Source: Zootoca vivipara (taxonomy: Eukaryota). From it: a stretch of DNA of 64,000 bases. The number at the start of each line of letters is the position of its first letter. The stretch's first letter is position 1. A program made the position numbers and the translations under genes. This document shows, piece by piece, positions 3,001 through 16,200 of the stretch. Location of the stretch: NCBI RefSeq assembly GCF_963506605.1, contig NC_083277.1, positions 9,238,001 through 9,302,000 of the forward strand, written 5' to 3'. The notes beneath the pieces are model-generated. The model was not told the DNA's origin and ran no database searches. It saw only the letters and a program-made list of their open reading frames with translations.

Positions 3001-3653
3001 AAGGGCAGCAAGTCTAGAGTTAGCTGCAGAGAAAAATCAGGTTTTTTACATATTCACTTCAGTTACCTCCCTGCTTTTGTATTAAAAACCTAGATTACTC
3101 CATTGTGATCCTGAATTTATCCCGCATTTTACTGAACTGTTGATTTGGTCACATTTGAAATTTACTGGTATGTGGTGTGGCAAATTGGGGTGGGCGTGCT
3201 TTTAAATGTCAGGCATCTTGATAATTATTCAGTTCTACAAAGCTATAATGTTCGTTGTGAGCTGCTCTGGGACAGAGGTTCTTGCGGAAAAGTGGCATTC
3301 GAAGAAATTAAACTAAGCTGTGGTAAACCTGCTGTTGGGACTCAACAGCCCTTTGGGTTTCCTGATGTTCTTAGGTTCTTCTTTCATCTCTGCAGAATAT
3401 AATTACTGAATGATACGGAAAGGACGTGCGCAATAAGGTCTCGCCATCAGCAATGAGACATGACTGTGGCCCGATGCCCTCCCCTTCCTTTCGCACCAGT
3501 TAAAAAGCACATGCCAACGGATAACGGCAGTAAATGCCAAGAAACTGGAGATCTCTAAAAGCAGACAGGTGACCTTACTTTATTGTTCAGCCATTTGCTC
3601 CTCCATGGATGCCCAGTGAGACAGTACTCCCCACCCTCTAAGCCAATGTATAC

Positions 3654-4012
3654 ATTATTATTATTATTTATTATTTGTATTCCACCCATGTGACTGGGTT
3701 GCCCCAGCCACTCTGGGCGGCTTCCAACAGAATATAAAAATACAATGAAACTTCAGATATTAAAAACTTCCCAATACAGAGCTGCCTTCAGATTTTTCCG
3801 GAAAGTCGTGTAGTTGTTTATCTTTTTGACCTCTGACGGGAGGGCATTCCACAGGGTGGGCGCTACTACTGAGAAGGCCCATTGCTTGGTTCCCTATAGC
3901 TTCACTTCTCACAGTGACGGAACTGCCTGAAGCCCCTCCATGGAGCTGGACCTCCATGCCCAGGCTGAACGATGCGAGTGGAGACGCTCCTTCAGGTACA
4001 CAGGGCCGATGG
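3654..4012 (-). mobile_element. L2 LINE 3' fragment overlapping the end of gene A's CDS
   Basis: Homologous to the L2 copy at 12177-12589; L2 frame reads GPVYLKERL...AFSVVAPTLWNALP; (AAT)n tail. Confidence 0.9.
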
Positions 4013-5222
4013 CTTCTTGCGTGCGAGAGGAGGCTTGACTTCTGAGTGAAGCCCTTTCCGCACTCCAGGCACTTGTATGGCTTCACCCCAGTGTGGGTTC
4101 TTTCGTGCTTGAGAAGGTTGGAGCGATGGCTGAAGCTCTTCTCGCAGACCGAGCACTGAAACGGTTTCTCCCTCGTGTGCGTCCTGTGGTGAACGACGAA
4201 GGCCGACTTGTCCCGGAAGCTTTTGGGGCAGTCTGGGCACTGGAAGGGTTTTTCTCCCGTGTGGATCTTCTCGTGCTGAACCAGGCCGGCGTTCTGAGAG
4301 AAACATTTCCCACACTCTGCACACTTGTACGGCTTCTCGCCCGTGTGGGCTCGCTTGTGTTTCATGAGGGATGAGCTTTCGACAAAGCTCTTATCGCACA
4401 CCGTACACTTGTAGGGCTTCTCTCCCGTGTGGAGCCTCTCGTGAGTGAGGAGGTTGGTGCGATGCCGGAAACGCTTGCCACACCCTGAGCACGGGTACGG
4501 TTTCTCCTCGGTGTGGATTCTCCTGTGCACGACAAAAGCGGACCTGTTCCTGAAGCTTTTGGGACAGTCAGGACACTGGTGCGGTTTCTCGCCCGTGTGG
4601 ATTCTCTGGTGTCGGTTAAGGTCAAATCTCTGCCTGAAGCTTTTCCCGCAGTCTGGGCAATGGTAGGGCCTCTCTCCCGTGTGGATCCTCACATGAGCCG
4701 CAAGCCCGCTGTGCCCTCTAAAGCTCTGACCGCAATCTGGGCAAACAAAGGGCTTCTCTTGCCGGTGGGTTCTTTCATGTGCCGTAAGATCCGATTGCTG
4801 GCTGAAGTTCTTCCCACATTCCGAGCAATTGAAGCGGTTCTCCCCGGTGTGGATTCTCTGATGGGCAACGAGGACATTCCTACTGCAGAAGCTCTTCCCA
4901 CAGTCGGAGCAGATGTAGGGTTTCTCTCCTGAGTGCATTCTCTGGTGTTCGGTGAGGTCCGCCTTGCAGCGAAAGGACTTTCCGCACTCAGCGCATGTCT
5001 CACCCTTGAGGAATCTTTGCTGGACTGGCATGGCAGGGAGCTGGAAATGAACGGATTTGCCTTCTTCATTATGGGGGTGAGTTTCCTGCTGGTTTTCGGA
5101 TGCTTCTCCCCAGTAAGGATAACGGGATACAGTCCGTTCTGCTCTCCCTGGCAGCATCCAACGTAGTTCAGCTCCTTCAGAATTGATCGGCAGATTCTTC
5201 TTCCAAGATGCCCTCTCATTGT
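3760..5222 (-). CDS. Gene A last coding exon: 12 C2H2 fingers plus an L2-derived C-terminal tail (model 7670-6906, 6167-6047, 5222-3760; ~782 aa)
   Basis: 12 CxxC-x12-HxxxH repeats with TGEKPY-type linkers; acceptor ttttttccaacag|AC is in phase 1 with the upstream exon. Confidence 0.92.
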
Positions 5223-6046
5223 CTGTTGGAAAAAACAAAGGATCCTTACAAAGGGAGGTTTCCCTTTACCAGGAAGAAATTACACAGCAAAGAAGGGGTT
5301 TGGGGCCCATTGATTTGAATGACCACCTACAGGAACCCACGCAAGCCCTAAGAGTGGCCTCAGAGATCCTGCTTGCTAGTGGATCTATAAGGTCAGTTAG
5401 ATTACCCAGCTGTGAGTCTTGAAGGCTGCTCCCTGCCAAGCCCTTTCCACCAGGCCTAGGGGGCGGGGCCCACCCTCACCAGCTCTACTAAAGAGGTTCC
5501 TGGTGACACCAGAGGGACATCGCTATGCCTGACAACAAACAGTTGGATTCTTTTGCCCCATCTTTTTGTGCCTGCCAAGCAGCCGTGTCATGCTTATGAT
5601 AATATTTTATTCTCTTGTTAATTATGCTGTTTTAAATGTGCATTTTATATTTTACTTTACTTAGCAATGTTTTTTTTGAAATGTTTAAGTTTTTATTTTG
5701 TTAACTTTGTTTGTGTGTTAAATATGTATTCTGTATTTGGTCTCCTTTGTAATGTTTTATTTTATTATCTTTAAGATCATATTTTAGTTTTCTGTTAATT
5801 ATGTTGCTTTGACTGTGTACTCTATATTTGACTTTCTTCAAATTGTTTTATTGATGTTTTAATATTCTGTAAACTGCTTTGAAATTTTTCTTAAAAACAC
5901 AAGGCAGTATAGAAATGAAATAAATCATAATCAAAATAATAATAATTGGTGGGCACTAGATCTGTGGGCAGAGCCTTTATTGTGGTGGCCCCTCATTTGC
6001 ACAACTTGCTCCGCAAGAGAACTCCCTCCAGCCAAAGACTCCTTAC

Positions 6047-6167
6047 CCAGCCAAGGGGCATCAGCAGCCGAATCCTCCACTCTGGTGAGCGGCCACTCAC
6101 CGGAGTCTGACAGAGCCCCGTCAGCCTCAGGGGAATCATCCGCTTTCTCCTTGAAGGGCCAGAGGAC
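6047..6167 (-). CDS. Gene A linker exon (121 bp, degenerate KRAB-A-like)
   Basis: tttcag|GTC...TGG CTG G|gtaag; phase 0 to 1 joins the SCAN and finger exons in frame; VLWPFKEKADDSPEADGALSDSGEW... Confidence 0.8.
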
Positions 6168-6905
6168 CTGAAACAGCAGAAAGAATGAGTCAAAGAAATG
6201 GGTGCGAATGGCCTGAGATTCAGGGGTGGGGAACCTCTGGAGCTTCTCCAGATGCTACGGGACTCCAATTCCCAGGGGTCAGGGGAACGGGAGTCCAGCA
6301 AGATCTGGAGGGCCACAGGCTTCCTGGCTTCGACTGAGTCAGGTCATTGGCCTAACTTTCACAGTATTGCCTACACTGACTGGCAGCAGCTCTCCAGAAT
6401 CTCAAGGAGACCTTCTTCAGGCAAAGGCTGTCCTCTGCGCTGTCTTTGAAGGGGGATGCATTAAACACTCCAGCTGGTGCAGGATGTGGCAGCCCATCTC
6501 AAGACAGGGACTGGAGCACAGGAATCCATCACTTCTGTGTCCATATAGCCTCCCTCTTCTCTCAAGATGGTGGATACAGAGCCCTGAAGGGCCAGAGACC
6601 AACACAGACTGCCTGTTCACAGCAGTGGAAGCTGGTCCGTTAGGGCAGAGAGTGCCTTGCCCACCATCCCCTGTCTTCCCCCAGCAAGTGACGTTCTAAG
6701 GTACACTGCCTCGGAACCTGGAGGTTCTACTTTGCCAATACAGCCAACCCCTGCTGATTCTGCCAGATCCCATTTTCGAACCATCCAAGGGAGCAGTCAG
6801 TCCAATGCATATTTACAGTCGGCAAAAACTGCCCCTAATGGCTCGCCCTCAGTCCTTGCCATCATTCCTTTTGTTCTTCCCAGGACTGATCTCCTGCTCT
6901 CTCAC

Positions 6906-7670
6906 CTGTTGTATTTCGTGCTCGTTCTCTTGCTGCCTCTCCAGGAAATCCTCCGCCAGGCCGACTGCCTGACCGCAAGTCTCCGGCCCGCCTTCTCTGA
7001 CCCAGTTCTGCATCTCCGGGGGCAGGACAGCCAGGAACTGCTCCAGGATCACCAGCTCCAGGATCTGCTCCTTGGTGCGCCTCTCTGGCTGCAGCCACCG
7101 ATGACAGAGCCTCCACAGCATCCCACAGAGATCTCGCGGCCCCTCGGCCTCCTGGTAGAGAAACTGCCTGAAGCACAGGCGCTCCACCTCCTGGCTGGGA
7201 GCCTCCTTCTTCACTTCCCCACGCTCCATGGCCAAAACGCTGTGGGTGGGCTGGGGGACGTCTCCTCCAGGGCCAGGCAGATGGCGGATCACCCTGCCTC
7301 GCCCAGACTGCAGCCCGATGTCTGATCGCCCCCCAAAGGAAGCCTGAGTGTCCCTTGGGCCATTGCTGTCCAGCTGCAGGCTTCCTGGTTCAGGCTGCGG
7401 AGACCGCACAGCCTTCAGGAGCCCCTGACACTGAGCTTCCCAGCACTCCTCCCGAGGCCCTTCCTCGGGTTCCTGCTTAATGTGCTCTGTTATGGGCCCT
7501 TCCCACAATTCCTTGAGGCTCTCTGAGCGGACGGCCAAGGAGCCTGTTCCTTCAGCCTCCTCCGGTTCAGACTCCGATGCCTCCTCCTGGGCCTCCGTCT
7601 TCACTGTGTCCTCCATCAGGGCATCTCGGGGGACAGCCCACACAGCTGCGTTCCTGCGTTCGGACGCCAT
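6906..7670 (-). CDS. Gene A SCAN-domain exon
   Basis: [51 protein letters not shown] is the SCAN signature; donor CAG|gtgag at 6905; exon begins at 7779 after an acceptor; ATG at 7670. Confidence 0.9.
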
Positions 7671-8640
7671 CACCTCTCTTAACTCCGGGGCTTGGCAGGG
7701 GTCACTCACACACTGCTATCCCATGTTTCTCGGTGATGTCAACTGCCAGGTCCAGGATTTTTTACAAGGCCTTGTGCCTCTGCAAGGAAAGAGAATCAGT
7801 GGGAGCTGCAGCAAAAAGTTGCAGCGTGGAACACTCCTGCTCAGGATGCTCCATTCCGTTCTCTGCCCCCATGTTTTCCATCCCACCAATCATCAGCCAG
7901 TATTCCGTGCATACTGAGCATGCTCAGTCCTCTGGGAACTGTAGCTCTGTGAGGGGAAATGGGGGGTCTCCCAACAATCTCAGCACCCTTAACAAACTAC
8001 AGTTCCCAGGATTCTTTGGGGGAAGCCATGACAGTTTAAAGTGGAATTACATTGTGCTAAATGCATAGTGCAGATGGCACCCTGATTACAGCCCTTTCAC
8101 ACGAGAGTCCAGTGTTCTAGTTTCCCACTGCGCTTTCTCATATTCAGAAGCTGTTCATTTCATTTTTGCAGGGTGGGAGAAGAAGTTGCTGCCACTATTT
8201 CTAATCAACTGGCAATCAAGAAGCCTTAGTGATCTACTGCAAATCACCCCATCTGACTTCTGACCACCCCTGAAGACAGATATAGGCAAGATATAGCCAT
8301 GAAGAATAATCCTTGATAGACTTTACGTTTAAAAGGCGTGGGGGTGGGATAGAGAAATCCACAGAGGATGTTCTAAAACTCACCACAGCTCCGTGGAACC
8401 TGCATGTTCAGGAGCAGTTTACCTGTGATCACAAGATGCTGGAGGCAAAGACAGCAAGAGATTTGCCGCTGCCTCGCTGCCTCTGAGCATCCCAGAGAGG
8501 TCTGGCTGCCCACTGTTGGGAGCGGGAGGCTGGTCTGGGGGGTTTGTCTGATCCAGCAGGGAGTCCTCTTAGACCCCTAAAGCAAACCTTCCTATTCCAG
8601 GTGAGCTCTCTGCTCCTCCCTCAAGGCTCTTCTCACTTAC

Positions 8641-8800
8641 CGGATTCCCTCCCAGGAGCTGAAAAATCTTTCTCCAGCCTCTACTTTGCAGCAAAGAAAA
8701 GCACCATAGAGTCGCTAAGGGGGAGAAAAGGAAGAGGAGGGCCTTCAATAGTCGTAACAATTTCCGTCCGAAGTGGCGCTCTAGAAATCACGACTCTCTC
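8641..8800 (-). promoter_or_regulatory. Probable non-coding first exon/TSS of gene A; divergent promoter region shared with gene B up to ~10000
   Basis: Strong minus-strand donor CCG|gtaagt at 8640; local CpG enrichment at 8750-8800 and 9745-10010. Confidence 0.45.
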
Positions 8801-10245
8801 AGCTTAACCCTTTATGACAACCAGAGCACAGAGGGGGCTTTCCTTTGTATTTTTAAAATATCCCTCGCCTGTGCCAAATTGGAAGCATCAGATTAGGTCT
8901 GGCAGTGCAAATAAAAACCTACGTGTGCATGCATTTTATCCAAGGAGGGGCTGTAGTTCGGTGGCAGAGAGCATATGCTTGACATGCAGAAGATCCCCTG
9001 TGGCCCAGCCCTTGGTATCGGCCATTTAAAAGGCGAAGGGAAGGACCTTTCTGTGCTTGAGACCCGAGAGAGCCGCTGCCAGCCAGAGCAGGCAATACTG
9101 GCCTTGGTGAACAAATAGGCTAACCTCTGGTACGGAACAGCTTCGGGGGCAAACATCTTGCTAGCTGTGCGCATACAAAAAAGAGAGTTGGGAGAGTCAG
9201 GACAATGGCCCATCGAGTCCAGCATCCTTTTCCCACAGTGGCCAACTAGAAGCCTGTGGGAAACCAGCAAGCCGGATCTGGCCTCAAGAGCCCCCCTCCT
9301 CTCCTGTGGCTTCCAGCAGCTGGGACCCCTTACTCTGTGGAGTTTGGGCACAGAGGCGAGATTTGAACTGAGGTCTTCGCCCTGAGCTCCTCCCATTGCA
9401 AGGATTTGATGTGCTAATTATGGTATTTATTATTTTTCACCTTTATTTCTTCAAGAAGTGGTATTCATGGTTCTCCCCCTCTTCATTTGATCCCTACTAC
9501 AACCTTGCAAGGTAGGCTAGGCTGAGAGGCAGTTGCCTGTCCAGCTTCCTGGCCCAGTAGGGATTTGAACTCAGGTCTCCCCCGGTCCTAGTCTAGCACC
9601 CTTAAATACTACATCACATTGGCTCTCGTGTGTAGACATCATACATTAAAAGCACATTCTCCTTCCCCCCCGAAAAAAAACCAGAAACATAAGAACTGTA
9701 GTGCAAGGGTGCAGGGCAAACTACAGTTTCCAATATATGCTCTATGACGTGCGTCTGGGCGTGCCTAGTTGCAATTCGGCTTAAGGGTTAAAGTGTGCGA
9801 GTTTGCACCCCTAGAAAAGCGAAAGGGAAGAAAGGGAAGATCTGCAAAGGGGCTGAAGTCATTTCCTGCCCCTCCTCTTTTAGGGAGATGGTTGTGTGTT
9901 TTTTTTAGGGGTGTTGCTGTTCATTGAATTGTTTCGTGGCGGAGATCAGCGCCTGCGGAGCCTGTCTGCTCAAAGAGGATTTAGGCGAGAAGACCCGAGA
10001 CGGGGAAGCAGGAAGGCAAAAGTGGGGGGTTTTCATGGAATAATATGCAAAGGATGATGACTAGGAAGACAGCCTAGTTTGTGGATCCTGAAAAGCAGGA
10101 TTTTGCAAGCAAGCAAGCTGTGCAATCAGTGATTTATCCTGCTTGTCTTTTTTTAATAAAATGTTCTTCTGTTCAAATTATAAAAAGGTTTTATCCTGTT
10201 TTTCAAGATCCTCGAAGGTTTTGTGTTGCTGATAGAGCTATATTG

Positions 10246-13254: not shown

Positions 13255-16200
13255 CAGTGATGCCTCGCAAGACGAAATTAATTCGTTCCGCGAGTCGTTT
13301 CGTATTGCGAAAATTTCGTCTTGCGAAGCGCGGTTTCCCACAGGAACGCATTGAAATTTAATTAATGCGTTCCTATGGGCAAAAAAAAGTCAGAACAAAG
13401 GCAAATTTGGTTTACAAAGTGTTTATTAAGTGGTCTTTAAAGGCATACATACTGTACAGAGGATTTCAAAAATTTCAAGCGCAAAACTTCAACTTTTTAA
13501 ACATGACAGAAAAACTTTTAAAAATCAGCAATCATGAGGCAGGACCATGTGACCTGAGGCTCAACACTGAAACTGAGCAGAAACAGTCACGAACAGTCCT
13601 TGGACTGTGCAAACTCTTCAGAAAGTACATTTTTAAGGCATGTAAACAGGGGCATCATACAGAAACCAACACAGAAACTTTTTAAAATCAGCAAAGGACT
13701 CTCTAAGGCTCTAGGGAACACTTTTACACAAACATTTTAAGGTGACCAAGTGAGGCTGAAGTGTCTCAACCTACAGGACCAGTCTTTTAAGTCAGGAAAC
13801 TGGAGGCAGACAGAACGGTCTCCACATCACAGCAGCAGTCTCTTACTGTATGCTCCCAGAGCTGCAGAGGGTCTCAGCATCACTTCTCTAAGTTACCAGA
13901 CAGCTTGGACAATGCTGGACAACTTGGAGAAGGCTTCAAGGCTTGGCTTCTAGAAGGACGAGGAGGAGGAAGAAGGCAACTGGGCACCACTGGTAGAAGC
14001 AGCAGGTTCCTCTTTCACTCTTTGCTTCTTCATGATGAACCTCTCCATGGTCTGCCGCTTCAGCCGCCTTTTCAGCACCCTTCTGAAAGAGGACATGATC
14101 CTTGTATCAAACGTGTTCGCAAGGTCACGTGCCAGAGCCTTGTCTGGGTGGTGCCGCTGTGCATAAGTCTGCACATTTTTCCACTGTTGGCAGATGTCCT
14201 TCAGTTCCGTGGAGGACAGCTGTTCCTCACCTGTCGCTTCTTCCTCTTCCAAAGAGGCCTGCTCCTGTGTAGCCTCTGCCTGCAGTTCGACCAGCTCCTG
14301 GGTGGACAGCTCCTGGTCGTGGTCCTCCACCAGCTCGCAGACGTCCTCCTCTGTGACCTCAAGGCCCATGGTCCTCCCCAAGGAAACAATGTCCTCCAGC
14401 ACTGTGGACTCTGGTGCAGGCGCGGAAGCGTCAGAGTCACTTATTGCCACACAGTCTGGCCACAGGTTGCGCCAAGCGGAATTCAGAATTCTCTGGCTGA
14501 TCCCGTCCCAGGCCGTGGTGATCATCTTCACGCAGCTGACGATGTCGAAGTGGTCTCTCCAGAATTCACGCAGGGTGAGGTTGGTGCAATCGGTCACCTC
14601 GAAGCAGCGCCGGAAAAGCTCCTTGGTGTAGAGCTTTTTGAAATTGGCGATGACCTGCTGATCCATTGGCTGCAGTAGTGGGGTGGTGTTAGGCGGCAGG
14701 AACATGACCTTTATGAAGCGGAAGTCCTCTAACAAGTCTCCCTCAAGGCCTGGAGGATGAGCAGGAGCATTGTCCATCAGAAGCACGGCCTTCAGCGGCA
14801 GGTCGTTGTCCAGCAGGTACTGCTTGACTGCAGGGCCAAAAGCCAGATTGACCCAGTCCACAAACAGGACGCGTGTGACCCAAGCCTTAGCGTTGGATCG
14901 CCACAACACGCTCAGCTGGTCTTTGTTGACCTTGTGCTTCTTGAAGGCCCGTGGGTTCTCGGACTGGTACACCAGCATGGGCTTTATCTTCAGGTCACCG
15001 CTGGCGTTGGCGCAGAAGAGGAGAGTCAGACGGTCCTTCATGGGCTTGTGGCCAGGCAGCTTGGCCTCCTCTTGAGTGAGGAAGGTCCTTTTGGGCATCC
15101 TCTTCCAAAACAGCCCGGTCTCATCGCAGTTGAAGACCTGCTGTGGAAGGTAGCCCTGTGTCTTCACGACCTCCAGGAACTCCGTGGCAAAGTCCTCAGC
15201 CGCAGGGACATCGGGACTGGCAGCCTCTCCATGCCTGACCACGCTGTGGATTCCAGATCTGGTTTTGAACCTTTCAAACCAGCCTCTGCTTGCCTTGAAG
15301 ACTTCTGGCTCGGCTGAGGTTCCTGGCTCTTGCTGTACGAGGTCTGCGTGCAAGGCCTTGGCCTTCTCACAAATGACAGCCTCAGTCACTGTGGCCCCTG
15401 CACGCTGCTTCTCTTCCAGCCAGATGAGCAGCAACTTCTCCACCACCTCCAGAACAGCTGGCCGGTTCTTCACGATCCTGGTGACTCCCTTGGCTACATC
15501 TGTCGCAAGGATCTTCTCCCTCATCTTCAGGATGGTCCCGATGGTGGATGGATTCCTCCCATACTCCCTGGCGAGGTCTGTCACTCGCAGGCCTCCGTCG
15601 TGCTTCCAGATGATCTCCTTCTTCATTTCTAGCGTAATCTTCTCCTTTGTCCTCTTCCCGGCCTCTGCAGGAGCAGCCTTCTTGGGACCCACGTCAGCAC
15701 GCTTGCTATGTTCGCAAAAACAAAAGGCAGTGCTTCACATCCGCTTCACACACACCTTCCCACCCCTGGCCAAACCTGCCCGGGACAAACAAGTGGCATA
15801 ACAGCCCCCCCCCCAACAAAGGTGAAGCTAATCTCCCTACCTTTCCACTGCTTGAGATGTCCCTGTGAAGAAGCTCCTTAAATCCTGGTCTGGAAAAAAC
15901 AGTTGCAAATGAGTTCCACAGATTCCCCAAACTGCTGAAAAAACTCCCCTAACCTCCCCAAAACAGCAGGCCAAAACTGGCCAGCTGGCCCCCCCAAAAT
16001 GTACCTCAAACGCTGGCCACCACTTCCCAAAAGTTATGAAAAGTTCAAAGAAACTTCCCTTAGCTGCTGGTAGTAGGTTCCCCAAACCTCTGCAAAAGAA
16101 TAAAGAAAACCTGAACCCCCCCAACCCCAAACCCTCAAAAAAGTTTGGAAAATGTGGGGAAGATGCTCAGAACAGTTCACCAAATGGTGGCAAAAAAGTT

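What the first reader, a model, noticed from the sequence alone, without database searches (positions are those of the whole stretch)
3654..4012. Gene A's C-terminal ~80 aa and stop codon come from an L2 LINE read in a shifted frame
Seen: L2 homology starts at the last His codon of finger 12 (AGC CAT CGG CCC TGT GTA CCT GAA GGA GCG vs L2 GGCCTCGGTCCAGTATACCTAAAGGAGCG). The L2's own frame has stops, while the ZNF frame stays open to 3760. Compared with sibling copies in this window, this copy has a frame-preserving 3 nt insertion and has lost the TAG/TAA they carry in that frame (TTT TAG AAG vs TTT CCG GAA). The L2 tail also supplies an AATAAA near 3670. Inference: the insertion truncated the array or removed the stop and was exonised. 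Caveat: this frame is already open for roughly 70 codons in the 12177 copy, so length alone does not show selection.
Basis: partly seen in the sequence, partly recalled or inferred. Interest (0 to 1): 0.7.

Follow-up and report, generated by a model that had tools for sequence, protein, structure and literature searches.

The report
LINE fragment replaced zinc-finger protein's tail
A piece of a jumping gene landed in the last coding exon of a duplicated lizard zinc-finger gene and now supplies its final 82 codons and its stop; the transcript carries it and related lizards share it, but the new tail changes at the rate of non-coding DNA, so it is likely a tolerated passenger of a kind already known from human zinc-finger genes.

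Summary
A 5'-truncated LINE copy (3654-4009, minus strand) begins at the last His codon of finger 12 of a SCAN-C2H2 gene. Read one base off ORF2's frame, it gives 82 codons and the stop (3760). A paralog 226 kb away shows the empty site: 12 fingers and a short acidic tail. So no finger was lost; about 18 nt are missing, and the old tail now lies behind the LINE. An RNA contig bridges the junction and the stop. Two Podarcis proteins carry the same tail and stop, and three other organisms' contigs bridge the junction without gaps. The copy belongs to an older subfamily whose majority sequence already lacks both TAGs and is open to the same TAA. Changes since insertion are 23 replacement to 5 silent, against 228:90 in non-coding copies (p=0.28). 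Frame survival is suggestive but not significant. Best reading: a tolerated, predicted-disordered tail, like the Alu tails of ZNF91, ZNF394 and ZNF669. Translation is untested and the L2 clade label is recalled.

The parts
3654..4009 (-). 5'-truncated non-LTR retrotransposon copy (L2-type; clade label recalled): last 85 codons of ORF2, short 3' UTR, (AAT)n tail
   Evidence: longer family copies carry an RT domain, Pfam RVT_1 E 7e-37
3763..4008 (-). 82 new C-terminal codons of gene A, read one base off ORF2's frame; Ser/Gly/Pro-rich, predicted disordered
   Evidence: pLDDT below 50 for residues 407-486
3760..3762 (-). TAA stop supplied by the element; the first stop of this frame in the old-subfamily majority
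   Evidence: same C-terminus in P. raffonei and P. lilfordi
3939..3941 (-). 3-nt insertion, probably a GAG slippage duplication later mutated (inferred)
3799..3801 (-). CCG where younger subfamilies have TAG; old-subfamily allele
3772..3774 (-). TTG where the young subfamily has TAG; CpG-decayed TCG of older subfamilies (P. lilfordi keeps Ser here)
3667..3672 (-). AATAAA inside the element's tail; use as poly(A) signal not shown
3567..3647 (-). Displaced ancestral C-terminal coding stretch, now 3' UTR; about 82% identical to the paralog's tail; holds a second AATAAA (3584-3579)
4009..4995 (-). 12 C2H2 fingers, all complete; finger 12 at 4071-4009
3760..5222 (-). Coding part of the last exon of gene A
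   Evidence: RNA joint 5222-6047 in all 4 runs
6047..6167 (-). Second coding exon
   Evidence: RNA joints; spliced model
6906..7670 (-). First coding exon, with ATG and SCAN domain

Best explanation
A 5'-truncated LINE copy sits in the last coding exon of one of two duplicated SCAN-zinc-finger genes, where it replaced the short native tail and stop with 82 codons from a shifted frame that was likely already open in the donor subfamily, and the new tail is likely a tolerated, predicted-disordered passenger rather than a selected domain. Shown: the insertion point, the empty site in paralog B, the displaced old tail, all 12 fingers intact, transcription through junction and stop, and sharing with Podarcis and three unnamed organisms. 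Inferred: insertion by target-primed reverse transcription with a 1-nt 5' microhomology and a 12-18 nt target-site truncation; timing in the lacertid stem near the duplication; tolerance because the stop stays in the last exon (so no nonsense-mediated decay; general knowledge), the DNA-binding array is untouched and paralog B keeps the old form; translation of the tail.
For: Empty site: gene A matches paralog B up to 4009 and again from 3647; B has 18 nt between these points, then its tail and stop. B-type proteins of Zootoca, P. lilfordi, P. muralis and Rhineura end shortly after finger 12. Expression: three spliced joints in 3 raw RNA runs, and a contig spanning 3706-4345 with 1 difference, from a run whose contigs are spliced. 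No listed joint leaves the last exon. Sharing: P0002, P0005 and P0007 carry the tail; contigs of 3 of the 4 other-organism runs laid bridge the junction with 0 gaps. Donor: this copy is 88.3% like the old (O) subfamily majority against 84.1% and 85.6% for the two younger ones, and it groups with 13 of 14 O copies at support 91/83. The O majority is open to the same TAA. Neutral-like change: 23 N:5 S against 228:90 in 21 O copies, Fisher p=0.28. The coding part is 11.6% from the majority against 9.8% for O copies. Tail amino-acid divergence from Podarcis is 11-12%, against 2.4-2.7% in the fingers and 4-5% in the linker.
Against: Only 1 of 8 near-full O copies is still free of stops and frameshifts in this frame; the rate is about 1.5 disruptions per 246 bp. 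The chance of none is roughly 0.23 along the Zootoca line, 0.28 on the other lines and 0.05 jointly, with assumed branch lengths. Between species, visible differences are 6 silent to 6 replacement against a null silent share of 0.30, p=0.12. The last 24 residues are identical between this protein and P. raffonei. The O group was picked with patterns that hold the stop-free alleles, so part of the grouping is circular; unpatterned sites such as 3701 and 3693 also link this copy to O. A majority sequence is only a proxy for the donor, and errors in it inflate N in this frame. There are no peptide data.
Confidence: 0.7

Rival explanations
1. The tail began as a passenger but is now under weak purifying selection, mainly its last 24 or so residues, as a disordered interaction, stability or localisation module of the diverged paralog A.
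For: Same stop and no gaps in three named species and in the pieces seen from four unnamed organisms. In 3763-3830, 5 of 6 visible between-species changes are silent (p about 0.01-0.03, window chosen after seeing the data). Gene A has its own recognition-helix residues in fingers 2-6, 8 and 12, kept between Zootoca and Podarcis, so the gene itself is constrained.
Against: No deficit of replacements or of total change against the donor subfamily. The whole-tail between-species test is not significant. No Pfam domain, no predicted fold.
Confidence: 0.22
2. The long open frame is a genomic curiosity: most mRNA ends or is processed so that the tail is rarely translated, or the protein is degraded.
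For: Raw-read depth over 3759-4009 is low in 2 of 3 runs (0.4 and 0.5 on the gene's strand). No peptide evidence. The 3' end of the mRNA was not mapped.
Against: There is no stop between finger 12 and 3760, so any mRNA with this exon must read into the element. One contig of depth 23.5 spans 3706-4345; the third raw run has depth 15 there; no alternative joint is listed.
Confidence: 0.05
3. One reading: the insertion cut the finger array short, and selection then removed in-frame stops to lengthen the tail.
For: This copy lacks the two TAGs that the commonest subfamily has (8968 copies with the second TAG).
Against: The paralog and the outgroup have the same 12 fingers. 183 copies share the TAG-free second site. 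All 7 fetched copies picked only for the first site also lack the second TAG, one having TAA instead. 16 copies match a pattern free of both.
Confidence: 0.03

Closest known systems
Alu-derived C-termini of human ZNF91, ZNF101, ZNF394, ZNF433, ZNF669 (PMC6924539; passages and sections 16, 19, 24 read)
   Same: A retroelement enters the last coding exon of a tandem C2H2 gene's main isoform by hijacking an existing exon and extends the C-terminus. That paper finds dN/dS not different from 1, with only weak evidence of selection for ZNF394.
   Different: Here the donor is LINE ORF2 coding DNA read off-frame, in a lizard. The addition is longer (82 residues against 1-33). No finger is displaced, unlike ZNF91. 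No stop or frameshift was seen across the few species checked, whereas 24 of 36 Alu exons have them across primates.
LINE-protein co-option, e.g. Lyosin, an L1 ORF1p-MYL4 fusion in sauropsids (PMC12129022; abstract and outline read)
   Same: LINE coding DNA becomes host coding sequence in reptiles.
   Different: Lyosin uses the element's own frame, comes in by alternative splicing and is under purifying selection. Here the element's frame is broken by two stops, the frame is shifted, and no selection was shown.
L2-clade LINEs of fish (UnaL2, HAmo LINE; PMC2653535, passages read) and ZfL2-2 insertions (PMC2666801, passages read)
   Same: Non-LTR RT, 3' end in a short tandem repeat, 5' truncation, and insertion with a short target-site truncation (a class described for ZfL2-2, 20 bp or less).
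   Different: No tree with named L2 references was built, so the clade assignment is a recalled resemblance.

Membership tests
Non-LTR retrotransposon (LINE) | ORF with a non-LTR-type reverse transcriptase, continuous with the inserted piece | tested here: met
   L117 ORF: RVT_1 E 7e-37; best PDB hits are L1 ORF2 and R2 proteins; the L110 ORF runs from the RT into the segment inserted here
Non-LTR retrotransposon (LINE) | Copies share a 3' end and are variably 5'-truncated | tested here: met
L2 clade | RT phylogeny groups with UnaL2, Maui and CR1-2_DR | not tested
The label rests on recalled motif resemblance.
L2 clade | 3' end in a short tandem repeat rather than poly(A) | tested here: met
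   (ATT)n, (AAT)n and related trinucleotide ends; criterion from PMC2653535 passages; also true of other clades
L2 clade | AP endonuclease domain N-terminal to the RT | not tested
   No full-length copy was fetched
L2 clade | Conserved 3'-tail stem-loop recognised by the element's protein | not tested
   Not folded
TE-derived C-terminal extension of a C2H2 gene (PMC6924539 class) | [quoted passage not shown] | tested here: met
TE-derived C-terminal extension of a C2H2 gene (PMC6924539 class) | Peptide evidence of translation | not testable with these tools
   No proteomic or ribosome-profiling data
Exapted (selected) TE coding sequence | Purifying selection on the TE-derived residues | tested here: not met
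   23:5 against 228:90, p=0.28; between species 6:6, p=0.12; power is low
Exapted (selected) TE coding sequence | Frame kept beyond neutral expectation | tested here: inconclusive
   Rough P of 0.28 on lines independent of how the locus was found, 0.05 overall
SCAN-C2H2 zinc-finger gene | N-terminal SCAN domain plus tandem C2H2 array | tested here: met
   SCAN E 4e-37 and 12 zf-C2H2 stretches; no KRAB hit in the full-length ortholog P0002

The most novel reading that the evidence does not exclude
After a gene duplication, an off-frame piece of LINE reverse-transcriptase DNA became a functional new C-terminal module of a lacertid transcription factor, with its last 24 or so residues now held by purifying selection alongside the paralog's new DNA-recognition residues: a dated natural case of de novo domain birth from a ready-made alternative reading frame, with the ancestral state kept next door.
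Probability: 0.2. Interest if true: 0.55.

Novelty: new member of a known kind. Interest (0 to 1): 0.3.

Why it matters
As it stands it is a clean lizard example of something known from human ZNF genes: zinc-finger C-termini tolerate retroelement sequence. Its value is as a test case. The empty-site paralog, the displaced old tail, the donor subfamily and the post-stop part of the same insertion give built-in neutral controls for asking whether an 82-residue off-frame tail has gained a function. It also shows a trap for scans like this one: comparing an old insertion with the commonest (younger) repeat subfamily creates false 'lost stop codons'.

Tried and rejected
Array truncation: rejected. 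Selected stop loss: rejected. The 3-nt insertion as a sign of selection: weak, since 10 of 43 indels in non-coding copies are also multiples of three and a 3-nt insertion at this site occurs in 19 other copies against 12579 without it (patterns differ slightly). A homolog search among longer proteins with the tail found none of 88 candidates (weak evidence). No A-type protein of P. muralis or Lacerta was found in the three searches, which does not show absence. No indexed run was on record as RNA (no RNA holder listed); expression rests on the raw RNA runs and spliced contigs laid. In run X11 no contig bridged the junction, although pieces with this locus's own alleles cover 3757-3852 and 3872-4007. 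The poly(A) site could not be mapped: sibling repeats swamp 3508-3758, depth in 3257-3507 is near zero, and no cluster of read ends was listed there. The between-species count left out six rows (3837, 3857, 3864, 3975, 3977, 3999), where sibling copies dominate depth. Paper searches (listings only) showed no paper on this locus. PMC2203978 passages added nothing. No supplements were read; those of PMC6924539 hold the per-gene alignments. Earlier scan notes did not bear on this.

Full report
Observation. The minus strand holds an open frame from 5222 to a TAA at 3762-3760 with 12 C2H2 fingers. From 4009, the T of the last His codon, to an (AAT)n end at 3654, the DNA matches a repeat with five long window siblings at 72-81% and the 39 best other genome copies at 81-85% (40 of 7626 candidates scored). 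The gene reads this DNA one base off the element's ORF2 frame, giving 82 codons; the ORF2 frame has two stops. Longer copies carry a non-LTR reverse transcriptase (RVT_1 E 7e-37; L1 ORF2 and R2 as best solved relatives) in the same ORF as this segment. 'L2' is a recalled resemblance that fits the tandem-repeat 3' end; it was not tested by a tree.

The gene. RNA reads define introns at 5223-6046, about 6168-6905 and 7773-8640. The spliced product has 782 residues, SCAN plus 12 fingers, and equals the C-terminal part of the Zootoca vivipara RefSeq model XP_060126910.1. In run X1, whose contigs are spliced and have no depth in three intron bins, one contig spans 3706-4345 with one difference, bridging junction and stop. 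No listed joint leaves the last exon. Raw-read depth on the gene's strand over the tail was 15 in one run and about 0.5 in two, with only about 6 in 100 of each run read. The mRNA's 3' end is unresolved: AATAAA occurs at 3672 (element) and 3584 (host), and depth is near zero in 3257-3507.

The empty site. A paralog (B) lies about 226 kb away in the opposite orientation. A and B align from 8833 to 4009 and again from 3647. B has 18 nt between these points and continues into an acidic tail and stop. In A those 18 nt are missing, 6 nt follow the repeat end, and then the rest of the old tail is recognisable at about 82%. B-type proteins of Zootoca, P. lilfordi, P. muralis and the amphisbaenian Rhineura end shortly after finger 12; P0008 has 12 Pfam fingers, and P0003 and P0004 align finger for finger. 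So the insertion removed the tail and stop, not fingers. A 1-nt 5' microhomology, no duplication and a short deletion fit the short target-site truncation class described for ZfL2-2 (PMC2666801, passages); a later deletion cannot be excluded.

Age. P. raffonei and P. lilfordi proteins have the same tail and stop (9 and 10 of 82 residues differ). Contigs from 3 of 4 other-organism runs bridge the junction with no gap; the fourth covers most of the tail in two pieces. The Rhineura proteins found are B-type only. A and B differ by about 23% in the 3' UTR over two branches, and the insertion differs by about 12% from its subfamily majority over one branch. This fits insertion near the time of the duplication, in the lacertid stem (inference).

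The 'lost' stops. The commonest subfamily has two TAGs in this frame (8968 copies of the second). But 183 copies carry this locus's allele at the second site, 10 at the first, and 16 match a pattern free of both. All 7 fetched copies chosen on the first site alone also lack the second TAG, one having TAA. An old group O (21 copies: 7 and 14 of 16, two duplicates dropped) has a majority 88.3% like this copy and open to the same TAA. In a tree of 68 rows this copy joins 13 of 14 O rows (91/83) and stays outside the young clade (97/95). The selection patterns make this partly circular, but unpatterned sites agree (3701: 11 of 15 O copies against 1 of 29 young ones). The 3-nt insertion looks like a GAG duplication, seen in 19 other copies.

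Selection. Against the O majority the tail has 23 replacement and 5 silent changes; O copies scored the same way have 228 and 90 (p=0.28; without CpG sites 19:4 against 179:63, p=0.46). Total change is 11.6% against 9.8%. Between species, the differences visible outside stretches swamped by sibling repeats are 6 silent and 6 replacement, null share 0.30, p=0.12. The tail diverges from Podarcis about as fast as the host's N-terminus (11-12% against 9-14%) and faster than linker (4-5%) or fingers (2.4-2.7%). Against pure neutrality: O copies suffered 10 frameshifts and 10 new stops in 3315 bp, and only 1 of 8 near-full copies stayed open. The rough chance of no disruption is 0.23 on the line to this genome, which is biased by how the locus was noticed, and 0.28 on the other lines, with assumed branch lengths. 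In the last 23 codons 5 of 6 visible changes are silent, but that window was chosen afterwards. AlphaFold gives the tail pLDDT below 50 with no secondary structure, from an alignment of only 4 rows.

Mechanism and verdict. Most likely the element inserted into a redundant gene copy just past the last zinc ligand. The shifted frame was open by inheritance, the stop stayed in the last exon, and the fingers were untouched, so the allele was tolerated and fixed. The tail is probably a passenger (0.7); weak later constraint remains possible (0.22). This matches the Alu-derived C-termini of five human ZNF genes, which mostly show no selection (PMC6924539, sections 16, 19, 24), and differs from own-frame LINE co-option such as Lyosin (PMC12129022, abstract). 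Four paper searches (listings only) showed nothing on this locus. It is a new member of a known kind; interest 0.3.

Noticed in passing
window 4009-8833 against L033 907-5186 (G000:C2, about 9011400-9015700): Paralogs A and B show patchy identity: 96-98% in introns 1-2, the SCAN exon and fingers 9-12, 82-83% in fingers 4-8, 77% in the 3' UTR. N-termini share species-specific residues within each species. This suggests ongoing gene conversion between inverted copies that spares the diverged fingers.
   Followed up: partly
window 4010-4995: Gene A differs from B and Rhineura at recognition-helix residues of fingers 2-6, 8 and 12, and these changes are kept between Zootoca and Podarcis: a likely change of DNA specificity after duplication.
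   Followed up: no
G000:C15, 0.98-28.7 Mb (e.g. L038-L045): 12 of the 19 other repeat copies with the 3-nt insertion lie on contig C15, 11 of them within its first 13 Mb, and they seem to belong to different subfamilies. Unexplained: local gene conversion or a local source element.
   Followed up: no
window 13950-15734 (-): A 594-codon open frame that looks like a Tigger/pogo-type transposase (recalled resemblance); the RefSeq model P0006 fuses it with neighbouring zinc-finger genes and gene A, probably a mis-joined annotation.
   Followed up: no
window 7773-8640: The 5' UTR intron has a GT donor, but its acceptor end as laid is not AG; possibly an allele difference or a shifted joint.
   Followed up: no
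window 7932-8028: RNA reads and contigs show strand-switching joints and high depth here, as from a palindromic repeat.
   Followed up: no
window 6101 and P0007: A P. lilfordi model uses an earlier donor in the second coding exon, 18 residues shorter; a GT donor-like site exists at the same place in the window.
   Followed up: no
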